Shown: one piece after another, positions 580-47,882 of the stretch
Numbering within the stretch: position 1 is the stretch's first letter
How the letters are laid out: each line of letters begins with the position of its first letter
NCBI RefSeq assembly: GCF_050320075.1
Contig: NZ_CP190018.1
Direction: 5' to 3' (one strand)
Source: Escherichia coli
GTDB lineage: Bacteria; Pseudomonadota; Gammaproteobacteria; Enterobacterales; Enterobacteriaceae
Length of the DNA stretch: 64,000 bases
The notes under the pieces: generated by a model
The model's database searches: none
What the model was told of the DNA's origin: nothing
What the model saw: only the letters and a program-made list of their open reading frames with translations
Translations under genes and position numbers: made by a program

Positions 580-1212
580 ATGAAACGTTTAATTATGGCT
601 ACGATGGTCACAGCAATTCTGGCATCTTCAACTGTATGGGCGGCTGATAATGCACCGGTAGCGGCACAACAGCAAACTCAGCAAGTTCAGCAAACCCAGA
701 AAACGGCAGCAGCAGAGCGTATCTCTGAACAAGGTTTATATGCGATGCGTGACGTGCAGGTAGCGCGCTTGGCTCTGTTTCATGGCGATCCGGAAAAGGC
801 AAAAGAACTGACCAATGAAGCTTCAGCTTTGTTGTCAGATGACAGTACCGAATGGGCAAAGTTCGCTAAGCCAGGTAAAAAGACCAATGTCAATGATGAC
901 CAATATATTGTCATTAATGCATCTGTCGGAATTTCTGAGAGTTATGTAGCGACACCCGAAAAAGAAGCCGCGATAAAAATTGCCAACGAAAAAATGGCGA
1001 AAGGGGATAAAAAGGGCGCAATGGAAGAGCTGCGCCTGGCCGGTGTTGGCGTAATGGAAAACCAATATCTGATGCCGCTCAAACAGACTCGTAATGCACT
1101 TGCTGATGCGCAGAAACTGCTTGATAAAAAGCAATACTACGAGGCAAACCTGGCGCTTAAAGGTGCGGAAGATGGAATCATCGTCGATAGCGAAGCACTG
1201 TTTGTGAACTAA
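580..1212 (+). CDS. yfdX: periplasmic protein YfdX (EvgA-regulated, function unclear)
   Basis: Track ORF 210 aa with signal peptide; sequence recognised as YfdX; upstream of frc. Confidence 0.9.
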
Positions 1213-1266
1213 CGCTGACAGGCAGTATATTGAGGTAAAGGATTTAACTCCCTCCAGCCGACAATT

Positions 1267-1303
1267 TTTTATGACCACAATACGACAGGTTGTGGTCATA
1301 AAA
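1267..1303. terminator. hairpin terminator downstream of yfdX
   Basis: Perfect 14-bp inverted repeat TTTTATGACCACAA / TTGTGGTCATAAAA with 9-nt loop, about 55 bp after the yfdX stop, with A/T-rich flanks. Confidence 0.5.
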
Positions 1304-1455
1304 TTATTTGGCGCTCGCGGTTCTATAAACTCGCATTTTATCTTCCTCAAAGTAAACCGCAATAATCCCGTGTCATCACAAATCATTTATTATGTTATGT
1401 TTTATGGTACGCTTTAAAAGGCGTAATCATACCCTTACTTGTAAATCACCGGCGC

Positions 1456-1473
1456 TTCTTACAGTTGTAAGAA
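1456..1473. promoter_or_regulatory. EvgA box upstream of frc
   Basis: TTCTTACA-GT-TGTAAGAA, a perfect 8-2-8 palindrome matching the EvgA consensus, about 250 bp upstream of the frc start. Confidence 0.6.
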
Positions 1474-1724: not shown

Positions 1725-2975
1725 ATGTCAACTCCACTTCAAGGAATTAAAGTTCTCGATTTCACCGGTGTGCAATCTGGCCCATCTTGTACTCAAATGC
1801 TGGCCTGGTTTGGCGCTGACGTCATTAAAATTGAACGTCCCGGCGTTGGTGACGTAACGCGTCACCAGCTGCGAGATATTCCTGATATCGATGCGCTTTA
1901 CTTCACCATGCTTAACAGTAACAAACGTTCTATTGAATTAAATACCAAAACAGCGGAAGGCAAAGAGGTAATGGAAAAGCTGATCCGCGAAGCTGATATC
2001 TTAGTCGAGAACTTTCATCCAGGGGCCATTGATCACATGGGCTTCACCTGGGAGCATATTCAAGAAATCAATCCACGTCTGATTTTTGGTTCGATCAAAG
2101 GGTTTGATGAGTGTTCGCCTTATGTGAATGTAAAAGCCTATGAAAACGTTGCTCAGGCAGCGGGTGGTGCGGCATCCACTACGGGTTTTTGGGACGGTCC
2201 GCCGCTGGTAAGCGCTGCAGCGTTGGGTGACAGCAACACCGGAATGCATTTACTGATCGGTTTACTTGCTGCTTTGCTGCATCGCGAAAAAACGGGGCGT
2301 GGGCAACGAGTCACCATGTCAATGCAGGATGCCGTATTGAACCTTTGCCGCGTGAAATTACGCGACCAGCAGCGTCTCGATAAATTGGGTTATCTGGAAG
2401 AATACCCGCAGTATCCGAATGGCACATTTGGTGATGCAGTTCCCCGCGGAGGTAATGCGGGTGGTGGCGGTCAGCCTGGCTGGATCCTGAAATGTAAAGG
2501 CTGGGAAACCGATCCTAACGCCTATATTTATTTCACTATTCAGGAGCAAAACTGGGAAAACACCTGTAAAGCCATCGGCAAACCAGATTGGATTACCGAT
2601 CCGGCATACAGTACAGCCCATGCCCGACAGCCACATATTTTCGATATTTTTGCTGAAATCGAAAAATACACTGTCACTATTGATAAACATGAAGCGGTGG
2701 CCTATTTGACTCAGTTTGATATTCCTTGTGCACCGGTTTTAAGTATGAAAGAAATTTCACTTGATCCCTCTTTGCGCCAAAGTGGCAGTGTTGTTGAAGT
2801 GGAACAACCGTTGCGTGGAAAATATCTGACAGTTGGTTGTCCAATGAAATTCTCTGCCTTTACGCCGGATATTAAAGCTGCGCCGCTATTAGGTGAACAT
2901 ACCGCTGCTGTATTGCAGGAGCTGGGTTATAGCGACGATGAAATTGCTGCAATGAAGCAAAACCACGCCATCTGA
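1725..2975 (+). CDS. frc: formyl-CoA:oxalate CoA-transferase
   Basis: Track ORF 416 aa; family III CoA-transferase sequence recognised as Frc (YfdW); immediately upstream of oxc. Confidence 0.95.
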
Positions 2976-3028: not shown

Positions 3029-4723
3029 ATGTCAGATCAACTTCAAATGACAGATGGTATGCATATCATCGTTGAAGCATTAAAACAGAATGATATTGAC
3101 ACTATTTATGGTGTTGTAGGTATTCCTGTGACGGATATGGCGCGCCATGCCCAGGCGGAAGGCATTCGTTATATTGGTTTTCGTCATGAGCAGTCGGCAG
3201 GCTATGCCGCTGCGGCAAGCGGTTTTCTTACCCAAAAACCAGGGATCTGCCTGACAGTGTCTGCGCCAGGATTCCTCAATGGTTTGACCGCATTGGCCAA
3301 CGCAACGGTAAATGGTTTTCCGATGATCATGATTAGCGGCTCCAGCGACCGCGCGATCGTCGACCTACAGCAAGGTGATTATGAAGAGCTGGACCAAATG
3401 AATGCGGCAAAACCGTATGCCAAAGCAGCATTTCGCGTTAATCAGCCGCAGGATCTTGGCATTGCATTGGCACGCGCTATCCGGGTCTCAGTATCGGGTC
3501 GCCCTGGCGGAGTTTATCTTGATTTACCAGCAAATGTCCTGGCCGCGACGATGGAAAAAGACGAAGCGTTAACCACGATTGTAAAAGTTGAAAATCCGTC
3601 GCCAGCATTATTGCCATGCCCGAAGTCAGTCACTAGCGCAATTTCGCTTTTAGCAAAAGCTGAACGACCATTAGTTATCCTTGGCAAAGGCGCGGCGTAT
3701 TCACAAGCGGATGAACAGCTTCGTGAATTTATTGAAAGTGCCCAGATTCCATTCCTGCCAATGTCTATGGCGAAAGGGATCCTCGAAGATACACATCCAC
3801 TTTCTGCGGCAACTGCGCGTTCGTTTGCCCTGGCAAATGCTGACGTTGTCATGCTTGTCGGTGCACGACTGAATTGGTTACTGGCACACGGTAAAAAAGG
3901 ATGGGCGGCAGATACACAGTTTATTCAACTGGATATTGAACCGCAGGAAATTGACAGCAACCGCCCCATTGCTGTGCCAGTCGTTGGCGATATTGCATCC
4001 AGTATGCAAGGTATGCTGGCAGAATTGAAACAAAACACATTTACGACTCCACTGGTATGGCGCGATATTTTAAATATCCACAAGCAGCAAAATGCACAAA
4101 AAATGCATGAAAAATTAAGTACAGATACTCAACCATTAAATTACTTTAATGCATTAAGTGCTGTGCGCGATGTATTGCGCGAGAACCAGGATATTTATTT
4201 AGTTAATGAAGGTGCAAATACCCTGGATAATGCACGAAATATTATTGATATGTATAAACCACGTCGCCGTCTGGATTGTGGTACCTGGGGTGTCATGGGC
4301 ATCGGTATGGGCTATGCCATCGGTGCTAGCGTGACCTCTGGTTCTCCGGTTGTCGCCATTGAAGGTGATAGTGCTTTTGGTTTCAGTGGGATGGAGATTG
4401 AAACGATTTGTCGATATAACCTGCCGGTGACGATCGTTATTTTTAATAATGGCGGCATCTACAGAGGAGACGGTGTTGATCTCAGTGGCGCTGGTGCACC
4501 ATCACCAACAGATCTATTGCACCATGCAAGGTATGACAAATTAATGGATGCGTTTCGTGGCGTTGGCTATAACGTCACTACGACAGATGAACTTCGTCAT
4601 GCTTTAACCACCGGTATTCAGTCGCGCAAACCGACCATTATTAATGTGGTCATCGACCCTGCAGCAGGAACTGAAAGTGGCCATATTACCAAACTTAACC
4701 CAAAACAAGTCGCTGGTAATTAA
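3029..4723 (+). CDS. oxc: oxalyl-CoA decarboxylase (ThDP-dependent)
   Basis: Track ORF 564 aa; thiamine-diphosphate enzyme family sequence recognised as Oxc (YfdU). Confidence 0.95.
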
Positions 4724-7010: not shown

Positions 7011-10000
7011 TTAGTCATTTTGTTGACAGAAAACAGCTATCTCCTGGTCCAGCTCTGCAATGTGTTCTTTAACAGAGTTCAGCAACTTAAGAATTTCAGG
7101 CTTACTGTCATCTGAAACAGGTGTTATTTCTAACTGATGGCTAATATTAATCAACTTTTGCAAATTGAGGATGTTAGCCGCACCGTGGATGCGATGAATA
7201 CACTGATGGAAAGTTCTGTTGTCGCCAGCTTCTAGTGCATGAAACGCAGCGGGTAGATCTTTATGCGTTTCATGCTGGAAAGTCATGAGAATCTCCTGCA
7301 TCAGTTGTAGATCGTTCGCCGTATTATTTTTCAGGGCCTCGATATCAAGGTGGCGATACTGAGGTGCAATAGGCGCAACCTGGTGTAACTGACTTAAATG
7401 TGTTTTCAGTACATCCAGGGTCAACGGTTTGAACAAACATAAGTTCATGCCGCAATTTAACCCTTTTTCACGTTCGTTAGCCTGTGCGTTGGCTGTAAGC
7501 CCCCAGATGGGTAAGGAAGAATTTTGCTCACGGAGTTTGCGAGTCAACTCAAAACCATCCATATTCGGCATATTAACGTCAGTAATAAGCAGATCATAAT
7601 GTTGCATACTGACTTTGTGTAGCGCTTGCACACCATCAGTTGCTTCATCAACATCATATCCTAATAGGTTTAGCTGGCGTTTGAGTAATAGCCTGTTGGT
7701 CGGATGATCATCCGCGATTAATATGCTCAACTTTTCAGGGAGTGTCATGGGTTGTTCTGCTTTTGCCTCGACAGCCGCCACTTGTTGGGTAATTTCTACC
7801 GGGATTGTGATCGTAAATGTCGTTCCTATGCCTGGATGACTTTCTAATGACAAATCGCCCTGCATGTTTTTAATTAATTCTTTGCAGATCATTAAGCCTA
7901 AACCAGAACCTGTTTGCTGACGACCTGCACTTGTTTGGCTATAGCGTTTAAACAGTTGTTGTTGTTCTTCCTGCGATAATCCACTTCCAGAATCCATAAT
8001 CGTCATTTTGATAACAGCGTGGTTGTCATCAATGTCACCCAGGGAGGTCGTAATTTTTACTGCCCCCTCGGTAGTAAATTTAAGAGCATTGCTCAGTAAA
8101 TTAGATAAGACCTGCTTAAACGCCTGAGGGTCGATCTTAACCTGGTAATGTTCTGGAAACGTACTGCTGCAACTTAATGCGATGGATTTGCTTGCAGCAA
8201 TCGCACCGAAAGAATGACAAGTGTTCTGGACTAAAGTAGGGATATCGACCCATTGTGGTTGAAGTTGATAGTTACCCGATTCAATTTTGTCGACATCAAG
8301 GATTTCACCAATTAAGCCGAGGAGTGATTGTCCGGTGGCGTAGGCAAGTGAAATCGCCTCCACCCGTTGCTCCTTGCTAAGACCAGAACCCGACAGAAGT
8401 TCCAGGAAGCCCATAATGGAGCTTATTGGTGTTCTTATTTCGTGACTCATTGTTGCCAGAAACTGGCTTTTTGCGACAGTTGCATTGATCGCTTTATTTC
8501 TCTCTACCTCGAGTGCATGAATTAAATCACGCGTCTCGGTAATATCTTGCCAACCACAAATATAAACAGCATGATCGCTGGCTGGCAGATTGCATAATGT
8601 ATGCCAGTGGTTAATGCATCTTTTCTCGATGCCATTATCAATTTCAAATACCTGTGTGTATATTGTTCGATTTTCTTTCGTTTCTGCTGTGACTTCATGC
8701 GCATTAGAAAAAACATCTTTAAAGGGTGAGTCACTGTTTTCTAATGGTAACATTGCATTTTTGTAGTAATCCGCAGTGAAATAATGTTCAAAAGCACTAT
8801 TATGACTAATGACATTACCTTGCCAGTTTACAACATAAGTTGGATTCGGTAAGGAATCCGAGAGTGCTTTTCGGAATGATATTTGGTTTTCTAAATCACC
8901 CTGAATGACTTTACGACGACGAACTGAGCGTAACAGGTAGAATCCCCATAAAAGGCTACTGCCAACTAATAAAACGGATAATGTCGTGACAATATAAAAT
9001 TGCTCGCTATAGAGGTCCCATGTGTCAATGGTCACATTGGGCATTTTAATCCATTTTTCCGTCAGGCGCAGAACTTCGCTTGGGGGAATTGCATTCAGTG
9101 CTTTATTAATAATATCCTTAAGTTCCGGTTCTCCGCGAGGAAAAGCGAACGAAAGCGATGCATTCGGAACGCCGGGAATAAGAAAATGATAAAGTTCATT
9201 AGGATAGTAATGGTCGATCATGTAACGTGAATTTAACTGTGTCGCGACCAGAGCATCAAGTTCGCCTTCCTTGACCTTGTGAAATGCAGCGCTGGCGTTA
9301 TCGACTTTTATCCACTCTACCTCCGGATACATCTCTTTTAATTGCGAATGAAGCTCATAATAATAGGGAATGGCAACTTTCATTCCTTTTTTTAATGTTT
9401 GTTCACTGTCAGGCGCTTTTTGCATGACAAAAACGTAAGGCGTTGTTATGAAGGCTTCAGCAAATAAAACATTATTTTCTCTATCTTCACTATAAATAGC
9501 GGCGGGCAATATATCCCATCCACCGGGGTTAAGCTGTGTCCCCGCATGAATATTGTGTGAAACGGTGATCGGAGAAAAATTTAAACCTGTTTGCAAGGTA
9601 ATAATATTAAGAATATCACCCATCACGCCCCGAACTGAGCCAGTTTCATCTGTCATAGAATAGGGTGGCGAGTAAGGATTTTCCAGCACCTTTAAATCGG
9701 GATGCTGCTTAATCCACTGTTTTTCATGTTCAGTGAGTTCTAATGGTTTGTTCAGAAAGGCCAGGTTTCCTGTATCAAGCCAATTTTGTGATACTTCATA
9801 GCGAACTTCATTTGTTAAAGCATCAACAAACCGATTGAGTACTTCATTAAGAACGACTGAATCTTTTCTGGTTAAGAAAAAGTTATATTGACGCGGCGAG
9901 TTATAATATTTCACTACATTTAAGGAGTGAGTGAAATAGCGGGAAATCATACTGCTGGTAATAATGTTACTACCAATAAAGTAATCATTCTGTCCGGCTG

Positions 10001-47856: not shown

Positions 47857-47882
47857 AAAGGGAACCCGATGGTTCCCTTTTT
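47857..47882 (+). terminator. intrinsic terminator after fabB
   Basis: AAAGGGAACC-CGAT-GGTTCCCTTT followed by TT. Confidence 0.65.

What the first reader, a model, noticed from the sequence alone, without database searches (positions are those of the whole stretch)
1267..1303. Perfect 14-bp stem hairpin downstream of yfdX
TTTTATGACCACAA-(9 nt)-TTGTGGTCATAAAA is a perfect inverted repeat with A/T-rich flanks, about 55 bp after the yfdX stop. It probably separates the yfdX transcript from the EvgA-driven frc promoter downstream and may act in both directions.
Basis: seen in the sequence. Interest (0 to 1): 0.25.

Follow-up and report, generated by a model that had tools for sequence, protein, structure and literature searches.

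The report
Conserved hairpin ending the yfdX message
The perfect 14-bp hairpin 54 nt after the E. coli yfdX gene is real and conserved, and is most likely an ordinary one-way stem-loop that marks and protects the 3' end of the yfdX mRNA, at best a weak terminator and not a two-way one.

Summary
Arms 1267-1280 and 1290-1303 are 14/14 complementary with a 9-nt loop, 54 nt after the yfdX stop. This is the only such repeat in the 64-kb window; shuffled sequence gives 0.01.

The hairpin is single-copy, present in about 5,400 E. coli genomes, and under selection. The same stem survives in Yersinia and in an unnamed enterobacterium, where the rest of the yfdX-frc spacer has largely diverged. Pair 1274/1296 is A-U in most E. 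coli. It is G-C in 257 phylogroup-F-like genomes and in the unnamed species, and G·U in one Yersinia-like contig. Both one-sided changes seen give wobble pairs only in + strand RNA.

The T-rich tail (TTATTTGG) is specific to E. coli, interrupted, and scores below threshold. The relatives have no T tract. The - strand copy has no tail and no convergent gene.

Best reading: a 3'-end stem-loop of the yfdX mRNA that acts as an exonuclease barrier, with at most leaky intrinsic termination in E. coli. Rho probably does the rest. It sits upstream of the frc promoters. "Acts in both directions" is not supported.

No 3'-end data exist for inducing conditions. This is an ordinary, unannotated member of a known class.

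The parts
580..1212 (+). yfdX coding sequence (YfdX family periplasmic protein); stop codon TAA at 1210-1212
   Evidence: ORF list; RefSeq annotation of the identical E. coli stretch
1267..1280 (+). Left arm of the hairpin, TTTTATGACCACAA
   Evidence: Identical in 9 aligned E. coli strains and in Yersinia.
1281..1289 (+). Loop TACGACAGG. U1281·G1289 can close it to 7 nt on the + strand. The loop varies between lineages (TATGATTGT, CATGATTGT, CCACGGAACGG).
1290..1303 (+). Right arm of the hairpin, TTGTGGTCATAAAA
1274..1274 (+). A1274, which pairs with T1296; the covarying pair. It is A-U here and in Yersinia. It is G-C in 257 E. coli genomes (IAI39, SMS-3-5, CE10, ST648 and others) and in locus L026. 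It is G·U in locus L024.
1296..1296 (+). T1296, partner of A1274
1304..1311 (+). Tail TTATTTGG, a weak and interrupted T tract. It is present only in Escherichia. The relatives have CTCTCTGT or CTGTCACT.
1337..1366 (+). Putative sigma-70 promoter TTTATC-18-AATAAT (TTTATA in K-12). It is reported as an RpoD genomic-SELEX 'constitutive promoter' with H-NS in the frc/yfdX spacer. It starts 34 nt after the hairpin.
   Evidence: PMC3946193; sequence
1456..1473 (+). EvgA-box-like perfect palindrome TTCTTACA-GT-TGTAAGAA upstream of frc. Kept in Yersinia as TTCTTACACGCGTAAGAA.
   Evidence: PMC3720670 citing Masuda & Church 2003
1725..2975 (+). frc (formyl-CoA transferase), first gene of the downstream unit frc-oxc-yfdV-yfdE

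Best explanation
The inverted repeat encodes an RNA stem-loop in the 3' untranslated region of the yfdX mRNA (+ strand).

Proposed mechanism. RNA polymerase coming from the EvgA-activated yfdX promoter transcribes the repeat, and the 14-15 bp hairpin forms. In E. coli the following UUAUUUGG lets a fraction of polymerases terminate there, which is weak, leaky intrinsic termination. The remainder read on. They are stopped by Rho in the untranslated, C-over-G spacer, or they continue towards frc. 3'-to-5' exonucleases trim those longer transcripts back to the hairpin. The hairpin therefore sets a defined and protected 3' end for a monocistronic yfdX message. It also reduces read-through into the frc promoters that start 34 nt further on.

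The element works in one direction only.

What is shown: the hairpin exists, is single-copy, is conserved with a compensatory change, fits + strand RNA, and has a lineage-specific and sub-threshold T tract.

What is inferred: the actual 3' end, the split between intrinsic and Rho-dependent termination, and the stabilising effect.
For: 1. The structure is real and far beyond chance.

2. It lies 54 nt after the yfdX stop, in the same orientation, and upstream of the frc promoter elements.

3. Phylogenetic footprint. In the E. coli versus Yersinia spacer the hairpin is one of the three best-conserved 37-nt blocks. The other two are the EvgA-box/promoter block and the frc ribosome-binding region. 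The arms are 28/28 identical, while frc third codon positions are only 60% identical.

4. Pair 1274/1296 is A-U, G·U or G-C in different lineages.

5. Within E. coli the exact standard 70-mer is in 4,124 genomes and the double G-C variant is in 257. No full-length exact match to either single-change intermediate was found.

6. The two one-sided stem changes seen are wobble pairs in + strand RNA and A·C mismatches in - strand RNA or in a symmetric DNA site. They are L024 A1274->G and strain N3 C1275->T.

7. Loop sequence and length change (9 nt against 11 nt between the conserved cores, with two new pairs in L026). This fits an RNA stem and not a fixed-spacing DNA site.

8. The tail is T-rich only in Escherichia. 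The score is -14 for E. coli, -50 for Yersinia and -45 for L026, against +20/+29 for a canonical terminator at 23722-23753 in the same window.

9. This matches the class described by Dar & Sorek 2018 (PMC6061677). [quoted passage not shown] They protect against PNPase and RNase II and have C-over-G sequence downstream. The authors note that such elements can switch between Rho-dependent and intrinsic by changing uridine content.

10. C/G over the 60-100 nt downstream is 1.7 in E. coli and 3-5.7 in Yersinia.

11. Other yfdX genes (Klebsiella, L032) are also followed by stable but unrelated hairpins without T tracts.
Against: 1. No measured RNA 3' end exists. The curated Term-seq list of Adams 2021 has none near K-12 2,493,668-2,493,712. 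The gene is probably silent in LB/M63 medium. The TERMITe and SMRT-Cappable-seq supplements held here have no entry.

2. The literature often calls yfdXWUVE one operon, so read-through may be substantial.

3. Covariation rests on one pair and few independent events. The shuffle controls on six sequences are not significant.

4. Compensatory changes in perfect palindromes can also arise by template-switch mutation, without selection on RNA.

5. L026 shows no C-over-G bias downstream.

6. The terminator score uses a formula recalled from memory with modern energy parameters, so it is only a relative measure.
Confidence: 0.6

Rival explanations
1. It is a classical, efficient Rho-independent terminator of yfdX, acting on the + strand only. 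The hairpin plus UUAUUUGG releases most polymerases. This is essentially the first reader's view without the bidirectional part.
For: The pattern scan calls it a terminator-like site with 15 pairs, 4 G-C pairs and tail TTATTTGGCG. The stem is very stable at -18 kcal/mol. The position and orientation are right. The two flanking units have separate EvgA boxes.
Against: The stem is A/U-rich at its base and has only 4-5 G-C pairs in 14. The tail is interrupted, and the score is sub-threshold (-14) where a canonical terminator in the window scores +20 to +29. The T tract is absent in Yersinia and L026 although the hairpin is kept. There is no upstream A tract. No 3'-end data exist.
Confidence: 0.2
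2. It is a bidirectional terminator that also stops antisense transcription coming from the frc side.
For: The arms are perfectly symmetric, so a hairpin also forms in - strand RNA at -15.7 kcal/mol. A weak promoter-like match exists on the - strand at 1418->1389.
Against: On the - strand the stem is followed by AATTGTCGG, with nT 0.79 and score -59. The scan finds no - strand site. No gene converges here. The T run lies upstream and the A run downstream, the opposite of bidirectional terminators such as 23722-23753. Both one-sided variants (L024, N3) would be A·C mismatches in - strand RNA. The number of promoter-like matches is no more than chance, 8 against 7.2.
Confidence: 0.03
3. It is a double-stranded DNA operator. 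A dimeric regulator binds the palindrome ATGACCACAA-N9-TTGTGGTCAT and controls frc or yfdX.
For: The dyad is perfect, and both arms are conserved base for base between E. coli and Yersinia. The region is reported as H-NS-bound and regulatory. A purely structural RNA constraint would tolerate more wobble changes than are seen.
Against: It lies 54 nt after a stop codon, about 175 bp upstream of the EvgA box, and outside any known promoter. The core spacing changes from 9 to 11 nt in L026, with the extra bases themselves paired. Asymmetric half-sites are tolerated in L024 and N3, and in exactly the way that keeps RNA wobble pairs. A symmetric A:T->G:C change in both half-sites happened twice, in phylogroup F and in L026. 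For a protein site that would need the same recognition change each time. No similar site exists elsewhere in the window or in the plasmid set. I know of no matching transcription-factor consensus; this rests on memory and is not a test.
Confidence: 0.07
4. It is an intercistronic processing site, for example for RNase III, in a long yfdX-frc-oxc-yfdVE transcript. Cleavage would uncouple the stability of the yfdX and frc segments.
For: The genes are often described as one operon, yfdXWUVE. Folding of the wider region adds a 5-bp outer helix, GCCGA/UUGGC, around the main stem, giving about 20 paired positions. Analogous outer pairings can be drawn in Yersinia and L026.
Against: The continuous helix is only 14-15 bp, which is short for RNase III by general knowledge. 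The outer helix is not constrained: E. coli strains carry C->A, C->T and G->A changes in it, and its sequence is not conserved across species. No cleavage data exist.
Confidence: 0.05
5. It is a functionless palindrome. It would be a chance or relic inverted repeat kept perfect by template-switch (quasi-palindrome correction) mutation and not by selection.
For: Template switching can copy a change from one arm to the other and so mimic compensatory evolution (general knowledge). Only one pair covaries, and the shuffle controls are not significant.
Against: The arms are 28/28 conserved between E. coli and Yersinia, where frc third codon positions are 40% diverged and the adjacent spacer is largely unalignable. 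The hairpin is retained at the same position in a lineage whose YfdX is only 68% identical. Other yfdX genes carry different hairpins at the equivalent place.
Confidence: 0.05

Closest known systems
[quoted passage not shown]
   Same: It is a stable stem-loop shortly after the stop codon with no upstream A tract. The downstream uridine content is poor or absent, entirely absent in the Yersinia and L026 orthologues. Sequence just downstream has C over G in E. coli and Yersinia. The hairpin is conserved while uridine content varies, which that paper predicted for switching between termination modes.
   Different: The E. coli copy has a partial T tract (5 T in 8), so it may be a mixed or leaky intrinsic case. 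Rho dependence and exonuclease trimming were not measured for this gene. L026 lacks the C-over-G bias.
Canonical Rho-independent (intrinsic) terminators
   Same: It is a hairpin followed by a T-containing tail, downstream of a gene on the coding strand. A consensus scan detects it.
   Different: The stem has low G+C and four A-U pairs at its base. The tail UUAUUUGG is interrupted and the score is sub-threshold. The tail is not conserved in relatives. A T run, not an A run, lies upstream.
Bidirectional intrinsic terminators (A tract, stem-loop, T tract between convergent genes), for example window 23722-23753
   Same: The stem is perfectly symmetric.
   Different: The flank polarity is reversed, there is no T tract on the - strand, and there is no convergent gene.
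REP / BIME extragenic palindromes acting as mRNA stabilisers
   Same: It is an extragenic palindrome after a stop codon that could block 3' exonucleases. Buttiauxella yfdX is in fact followed by REP-like repeats.
   Different: It is single-copy, A/T-rich, and has no REP consensus. There is one place per genome and no other copy in the window or the plasmid set.

Membership tests
Rho-independent (intrinsic) terminator | Stable stem-loop in the nascent RNA, directly downstream of a gene on the same strand | tested here: met
   The stem is 14-15 bp at -18 kcal/mol with z = -7.4. It starts 54 nt after the yfdX stop on the + strand.
Rho-independent (intrinsic) terminator | G+C-rich stem, especially at its base | tested here: not met
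   There are 5 G-C pairs in 14 (36%). The four basal pairs are all U-A.
Rho-independent (intrinsic) terminator | Uridine tract of 7-8 nt immediately after the stem | tested here: inconclusive
   E. coli has TTATTTGG, 5 T in 8 and interrupted, with nT 2.9 and score -14, just below threshold. Canonical sites in the same window score +9 to +29. Yersinia (CTCTCTGT) and L026 (CTGTCACT) have no tract.
Rho-independent (intrinsic) terminator | Measured RNA 3' end or termination at the site | not testable with these tools
   No entry in the held Term-seq, TERMITe or SMRT-Cappable-seq supplements. yfdX is EvgA-dependent and those cultures were not induced.
Bidirectional terminator | A tract upstream and T tract downstream, so that both strands read hairpin plus U tract | tested here: not met
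   The upstream flank is TTTTTT and the downstream flank is AAAA. The - strand tail is AATTGTCGG with score -59, and there is no - strand call.
Bidirectional terminator | Convergent transcription units meeting at the site | tested here: not met
   yfdX and frc are both on the + strand.
Protective 3' stem-loop of Rho-dependent transcripts (Dar & Sorek class) | Stable stem-loop after the coding region, without a U-rich tail and without an upstream A tract | tested here: met
   Fully met in Yersinia and L026. Partly met in E. coli, which has a weak tail. No lineage has an upstream A tract.
Protective 3' stem-loop of Rho-dependent transcripts (Dar & Sorek class) | C-over-G (rut-like) sequence just downstream | tested here: inconclusive
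   C/G over 60-100 nt is 1.7 in E. coli, 3.0-5.7 in Yersinia and L024, and about 1.0 in L026.
Protective 3' stem-loop of Rho-dependent transcripts (Dar & Sorek class) | Bicyclomycin-sensitive read-through and PNPase/RNase II trimming back to the stem | not testable with these tools
   The only related datum is a Rho termination region inside yfdX at K-12 2,494,302 (-) in Adams 2021, supplementary file 2.
REP / BIME elements | Member of a dispersed multi-copy family of G+C-rich imperfect palindromes | tested here: not met
   There is one place per genome at the median. There is no second copy in the window. The plasmid set holds only mislabelled E. coli chromosomal copies.
Rfam RNA families | Match to a curated covariance model | tested here: not met
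   Only two chance-level microRNA hits, with E = 1.6 and 4.7 and scores far below gathering.
Palindromic DNA operator | Symmetric half-sites at fixed spacing, in or next to a promoter | tested here: not met
   Core spacing is 9 nt against 11 nt. Asymmetric variants exist in L024 and N3. The site is about 175 bp from the EvgA box and follows a stop codon.
Small protein gene (ORF 1271-1417 +, 48 aa; ORF 835-1386 -, 183 aa) | Reading frame conserved in relatives | tested here: not met
   In Yersinia the + strand frame stops after 4 codons. The - strand frame is broken to 31-46 codons.

The most novel reading that the evidence does not exclude
The base-for-base conservation of both arms across Escherichia and Yersinia is stricter than a purely structural role requires. 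It could mean the stem is a sequence-specific RNA recognition element in the yfdX 3' UTR. Examples would be a docking site for an RNA-binding protein, or the body of a 3'-UTR-derived regulatory RNA. Such an element would tie yfdX mRNA fate to the EvgA acid-resistance circuit.
Probability: 0.05. Interest if true: 0.5.

Novelty: new member of a known kind. Interest (0 to 1): 0.18.

Why it matters
The practical gain is modest. The hairpin gives the yfdX gene a defined 3' boundary and supports treating yfdX and frc-oxc-yfdVE as two EvgA-driven units, although they are often drawn as one 'yfdXWUVE' operon.

The comparative picture is a neat natural example of an idea raised from Term-seq data. The stem is kept, one pair is compensated, and the T tract is present only in Escherichia. 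This fits the proposal that 3' stem-loops persist while lineages move between Rho-dependent and intrinsic termination by changing downstream uridines.

The natural G-C variant, present in about 5% of complete E. coli genomes, and the two wobble variants are ready-made alleles for testing this.

Tried and rejected
1. Rfam scan at E <= 10 gave only chance microRNA hits.

2. Small ORF 1271-1417 (+), starting at the ATG in the left arm: not conserved, with a stop after 4 codons in Yersinia. Antisense ORF 835-1386 (-), 183 aa: broken in Yersinia.

3. Repeat family or REP hypothesis: the hairpin is single-copy.

4. An outer 5-bp helix, GCCGA/UUGGC, was suggested by folding. It is polymorphic in E. 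coli with pair-breaking changes, so it is not counted as part of the element.

5. Search for measured 3' ends. The Adams 2021 supplements show only an internal Rho region in yfdX. TERMITe had nothing. SMRT-Cappable-seq had nothing. The supplements of Dar & Sorek 2018, the 3'-UTR valves paper and the Nanopore paper are not held. PMC9262186 had nothing. Masuda & Church 2002 is not held.

6. The metagenome pattern scan for G-variant hairpins returned 120 stretches. Nearly all were chance matches in unrelated contigs. Only L120 and L126 were informative.

7. The genome-contig scan with YfdX gave only 9 loci. The Buttiauxella yfdX genes are not next to frc and have REP-like repeats instead.

8. MAFFT misaligned L026 in the wider alignment A2. 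The hairpin-only alignment A3 was used instead.

9. The promoter-like match at 1202-1231, which could start a short RNA ending at the hairpin, is not above chance: 8 matches found against 7.2 expected. It is not conserved in Yersinia.

Full report
**Context.** The window is E. coli chromosome. The stretch 1150-1760 is 100% identical to strain CFSAN061763 and is present in 5,410 of 5,426 complete E. coli genomes. The local gene order is ypdI (-), yfdX (580-1212, +), a 512-bp spacer, then frc (1725-2975, +) and oxc (3029-4723, +). In K-12 MG1655 the hairpin corresponds to NC_000913.3 2,493,676-2,493,712 on the minus strand. This follows from the alignment and the coordinates.

The sequence is TTTTATGACCACAA (1267-1280), TACGACAGG, TTGTGGTCATAAAA (1290-1303), with 14/14 complementarity and 9 nt between the arms.
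- As + strand RNA it folds at -18.0 kcal/mol (z = -7.4). A U1281·G1289 pair extends the stem to 15 bp.
- As - strand RNA it folds at -15.7 kcal/mol.
- It is the only perfect inverted repeat of at least 14 bp with a 3-20 nt loop in the 64 kb. Markov shuffles give 0.01 per window.
- It begins 54 nt after the yfdX stop.
- It is single-copy. There is no other copy of an arm in the window. The median is one place per E. coli genome. The plasmid collection holds only E. coli chromosomal records.
- Rfam has nothing for it.

**Surroundings.**
- A perfect EvgA-box-like palindrome, TTCTTACAGTTGTAAGAA, lies at 1456-1473. A similar one, TTCCTACAATTGTAAGAC, lies at 428-445 in front of yfdX.
- PMC3720670, citing Masuda & Church 2003, states that EvgA binds inverted repeats that induce yfdX and yfdWUVE separately. 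The same paper also uses the name 'yfdXWUVE operon'.
- Shimada et al. 2014 list an RpoD genomic-SELEX promoter TTTATA-18-AATAAT, together with H-NS, in the frc/yfdX spacer. This maps to window 1337-1366, 34 nt after the hairpin.
- The hairpin therefore sits exactly between the yfdX coding region and the promoters that serve frc.
- yfdX and frc are induced to similar extents by acid, log2 4.9 and 4.8 (PMC10746267). This says nothing about read-through.

**Conservation within E. coli.** In nine diverse strains the spacer has about 40 variable columns. The stem is invariant, and one strain has a loop change, G1289->A, which turns the closing U·G into U-A. Queries with 70-mers gave these counts.

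| 70-mer query | Result |
|---|---|
| Standard sequence, exact | 4,124 genomes |
| Standard sequence, 1-3 differences | about 1,000 further genomes |
| Double variant G1274 + C1296, exact | 257 genomes (IAI39, SMS-3-5, CE10, ST648; I recognise these as phylogroup F-type strains) |
| Either single-change intermediate | no full-length exact match; the best rows are 98.6% |

Every 1-2-nt variant that I inspected lay outside the stem, in the upstream GCCGA. An intermediate combined with a flank change would not have been distinguished.

One genome in the G-C background, strain N3, has C1275->T, which gives a U·G wobble.

**Conservation beyond E. coli.** A scan of species-representative genomes with YfdX found the yfdX->frc arrangement in Yersinia vastinensis. 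Cluster look-ups added three more sources:
- Y. alsatica;
- a Yersinia-like Logan contig (L024);
- a G+C-richer unnamed enterobacterium (L026), whose YfdX is 68% identical and which has hdeA and hdeD upstream.

Their spacers are largely unalignable with E. coli except for three islands: the hairpin, the EvgA-box/promoter block, and the region just before the frc start. The hairpins compare as follows.

| Lineage | Left arm | Loop | Right arm | Tail |
|---|---|---|---|---|
| E. coli | TTTTATGACCACAA | TACGACAGG | TTGTGGTCATAAAA | TTATTTGG |
| Yersinia | TTTTATGACCACAA | TATGATTGT | TTGTGGTCATAAAA | CTCTCTGT |
| L024 | TTTTATGGCCACAA | CATGATTGT | TTGTGGTCATAAAA | CTCTCTGC |
| L026 | GACGGCCACAACC | ACGGAAC | GGTTGTGGCCATGTC | CTGTCACT |

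- The arms are 28/28 identical between E. coli and Yersinia, while frc third codon positions are 60% identical.
- Pair 1274/1296 is A-U, G·U or G-C. In L026 two extra inner pairs compensate for a longer spacer.
- With six distinct sequences the formal covariation controls are not significant. One pair has changes on both sides and 92% of cells are paired. I therefore treat covariation as supportive and not as proof.
- Both one-sided changes (L024, N3) are wobble pairs only in + strand RNA. Two of two has a chance probability of about 0.25.
- Other yfdX genes have different stable hairpins at the equivalent place, none with a T tract. These are Klebsiella, where yfdX converges on an evgS-like kinase gene, and L032.
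- Buttiauxella has REP-like repeats there.

**Is it a terminator?** The consensus scan reports it on the + strand only. Four points make it an atypical intrinsic terminator.
- The stem is 36% G+C, and four U-A pairs form its base.
- The flanks are T6 upstream and A4 downstream, the reverse of the usual A-tract/T-tract arrangement.
- The tail is interrupted.
- The relatives that keep the hairpin have no T tract.

I also used a d'Aubenton-Carafa-type score. The formula was recalled from memory and combined with ViennaRNA energies, so it is only a relative yardstick.

| Site | Score |
|---|---|
| E. coli hairpin, + strand | -14 |
| Phylogroup-F G-C variant | -8 |
| Yersinia hairpin | -50 |
| L026 hairpin | -45 |
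| E. coli hairpin, - strand | -59 |
| Canonical bidirectional terminator, window 23722-23753 | +20 / +29 |
| Window 47857-47880 | +9 |

The conserved, selected feature is therefore the stem-loop, not hairpin plus U tract. This is the signature that Dar & Sorek (PMC6061677) described for Rho-dependent transcripts. They found stable stem-loops without U tracts or upstream A tracts at steady-state 3' ends. These protect against PNPase and RNase II and have C-over-G sequence just downstream. They also noted that such elements could switch between Rho-dependent and intrinsic modes by changing uridine content. C/G in the 60-100 nt downstream is 1.7 in E. coli, 3-5.7 in Yersinia and L024, and about 1 in L026.

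**Most likely mechanism (confidence about 0.6).** This is a 3'-UTR stem-loop of the yfdX mRNA that defines and protects its 3' end. In E. coli a fraction of polymerases may terminate intrinsically at UUAUUUGG. The rest are probably stopped by Rho in the untranslated spacer or read on. Exonucleases trim back to the stem. It works on the + strand only.

**Rivals.**
- Efficient classical terminator, 0.2.
- DNA operator, 0.07. Arguments against are variable spacing, tolerated asymmetric variants, and a position away from promoters.
- RNase III or other processing site, 0.05. The helix is too short and the outer helix is polymorphic.
- Functionless palindrome maintained by template switching, 0.05. 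The argument against is conservation far above neutral expectation.
- Bidirectional terminator, 0.03.

**Experimental evidence is lacking.** The curated Term-seq 3' ends of Adams et al. 2021 (LB and M63 medium) contain none here. Their Rho table lists a termination region inside yfdX at 2,494,302 (-). Other held supplements have nothing. This absence is uninformative, because I expect yfdX to be poorly expressed without EvgA activation.

**Verdict.** The structure is real and conserved, and it is an ordinary member of a known class: a gene-end stem-loop, at best a weak one-way terminator. It is not annotated in RefSeq. The bidirectional suggestion is not supported. The mild interest lies in two things: the natural compensatory allele carried by about 5% of complete E. 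coli genomes, and the lineage-specific T tract.

Noticed in passing
window 1456-1473 and 428-445: There are two EvgA-box-like palindromes. TTCTTACAGTTGTAAGAA is perfect and lies upstream of frc. TTCCTACAATTGTAAGAC lies upstream of yfdX. The first is conserved in Yersinia as TTCTTACACGCGTAAGAA, together with the next ~35 nt (AATAACATCACAAAT.TCGCG..TCTCTCTGATTAC).
   Followed up: partly
window 1337-1366: The sequence TTTATC-18-AATAAT (TTTATA in K-12) matches the RpoD genomic-SELEX 'constitutive promoter' with H-NS that Shimada 2014 listed for the frc/yfdX spacer (PMC3946193). It lies 34 nt after the hairpin. The -35 element differs by one base between this strain and K-12.
   Followed up: partly
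window ~677 (K-12 2,494,302, minus strand), inside yfdX: Adams et al. 2021, supplementary file 2, lists a bicyclomycin-sensitive Rho termination region about 100 nt into the yfdX ORF. This suggests that transcription entering yfdX is stopped by Rho under non-inducing conditions.
   Followed up: no
L157 (E. coli strain N3, NZ_CP031609.1 2440098-2440286): This strain carries the G-C hairpin variant plus C->T at the neighbouring left-arm position, giving a U·G wobble. It also has one T fewer in the upstream T run. It is the only stem-wobble allele seen in E. coli. Three other genomes in the 95-99% band were not inspected.
   Followed up: partly
L019 (NZ_GG693475.1, Limosilactobacillus vaginalis DSM 5837 scaffold of 241 nt): This scaffold encodes the last 54 residues of E. 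coli YfdX at 100% identity. It is almost certainly E. coli contamination in that draft assembly.
   Followed up: no
L020-L023 (Yersinia alsatica), L010 (E. coli 1218KP): IS1 genes or remnants lie immediately upstream of yfdX in the Y. alsatica loci. This suggests that the yfdX-frc-oxc block arrived there by horizontal transfer. In E. coli 1218KP an IS1 and foreign genes replace yfdX and most of the spacer, up to 57 nt before frc.
   Followed up: no
window 640-700 (YfdX residues ~25-40, [13 protein letters not shown]): YfdX clusters at 91-98% identity range from 192 to 222 aa (P0002-P0025). This points to length polymorphism in the glutamine-rich stretch after the signal peptide.
   Followed up: no
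L028, L030 (Klebsiella) versus window and L026: In Klebsiella the order is hdeA-hdeD-yfdX, converging directly on an evgS-like hybrid kinase gene, with no frc-oxc-yfdVE between them. L026 has hdeA-hdeD-yfdX-frc. The oxalate block therefore appears to be inserted between yfdX and evgS in some lineages, and the hairpin sits at its left edge.
   Followed up: no
window 23722-23753, 25485-25513, 31299-31335, 7237-7275: These are other perfect hairpins of 12-13 bp. 23722-23753 (AAAAAAGGTGAGT..ACTCACCTTTTTT) is a textbook bidirectional terminator. 25485-25513 is a 13-bp stem with a 3-nt loop and no T tract.
   Followed up: no
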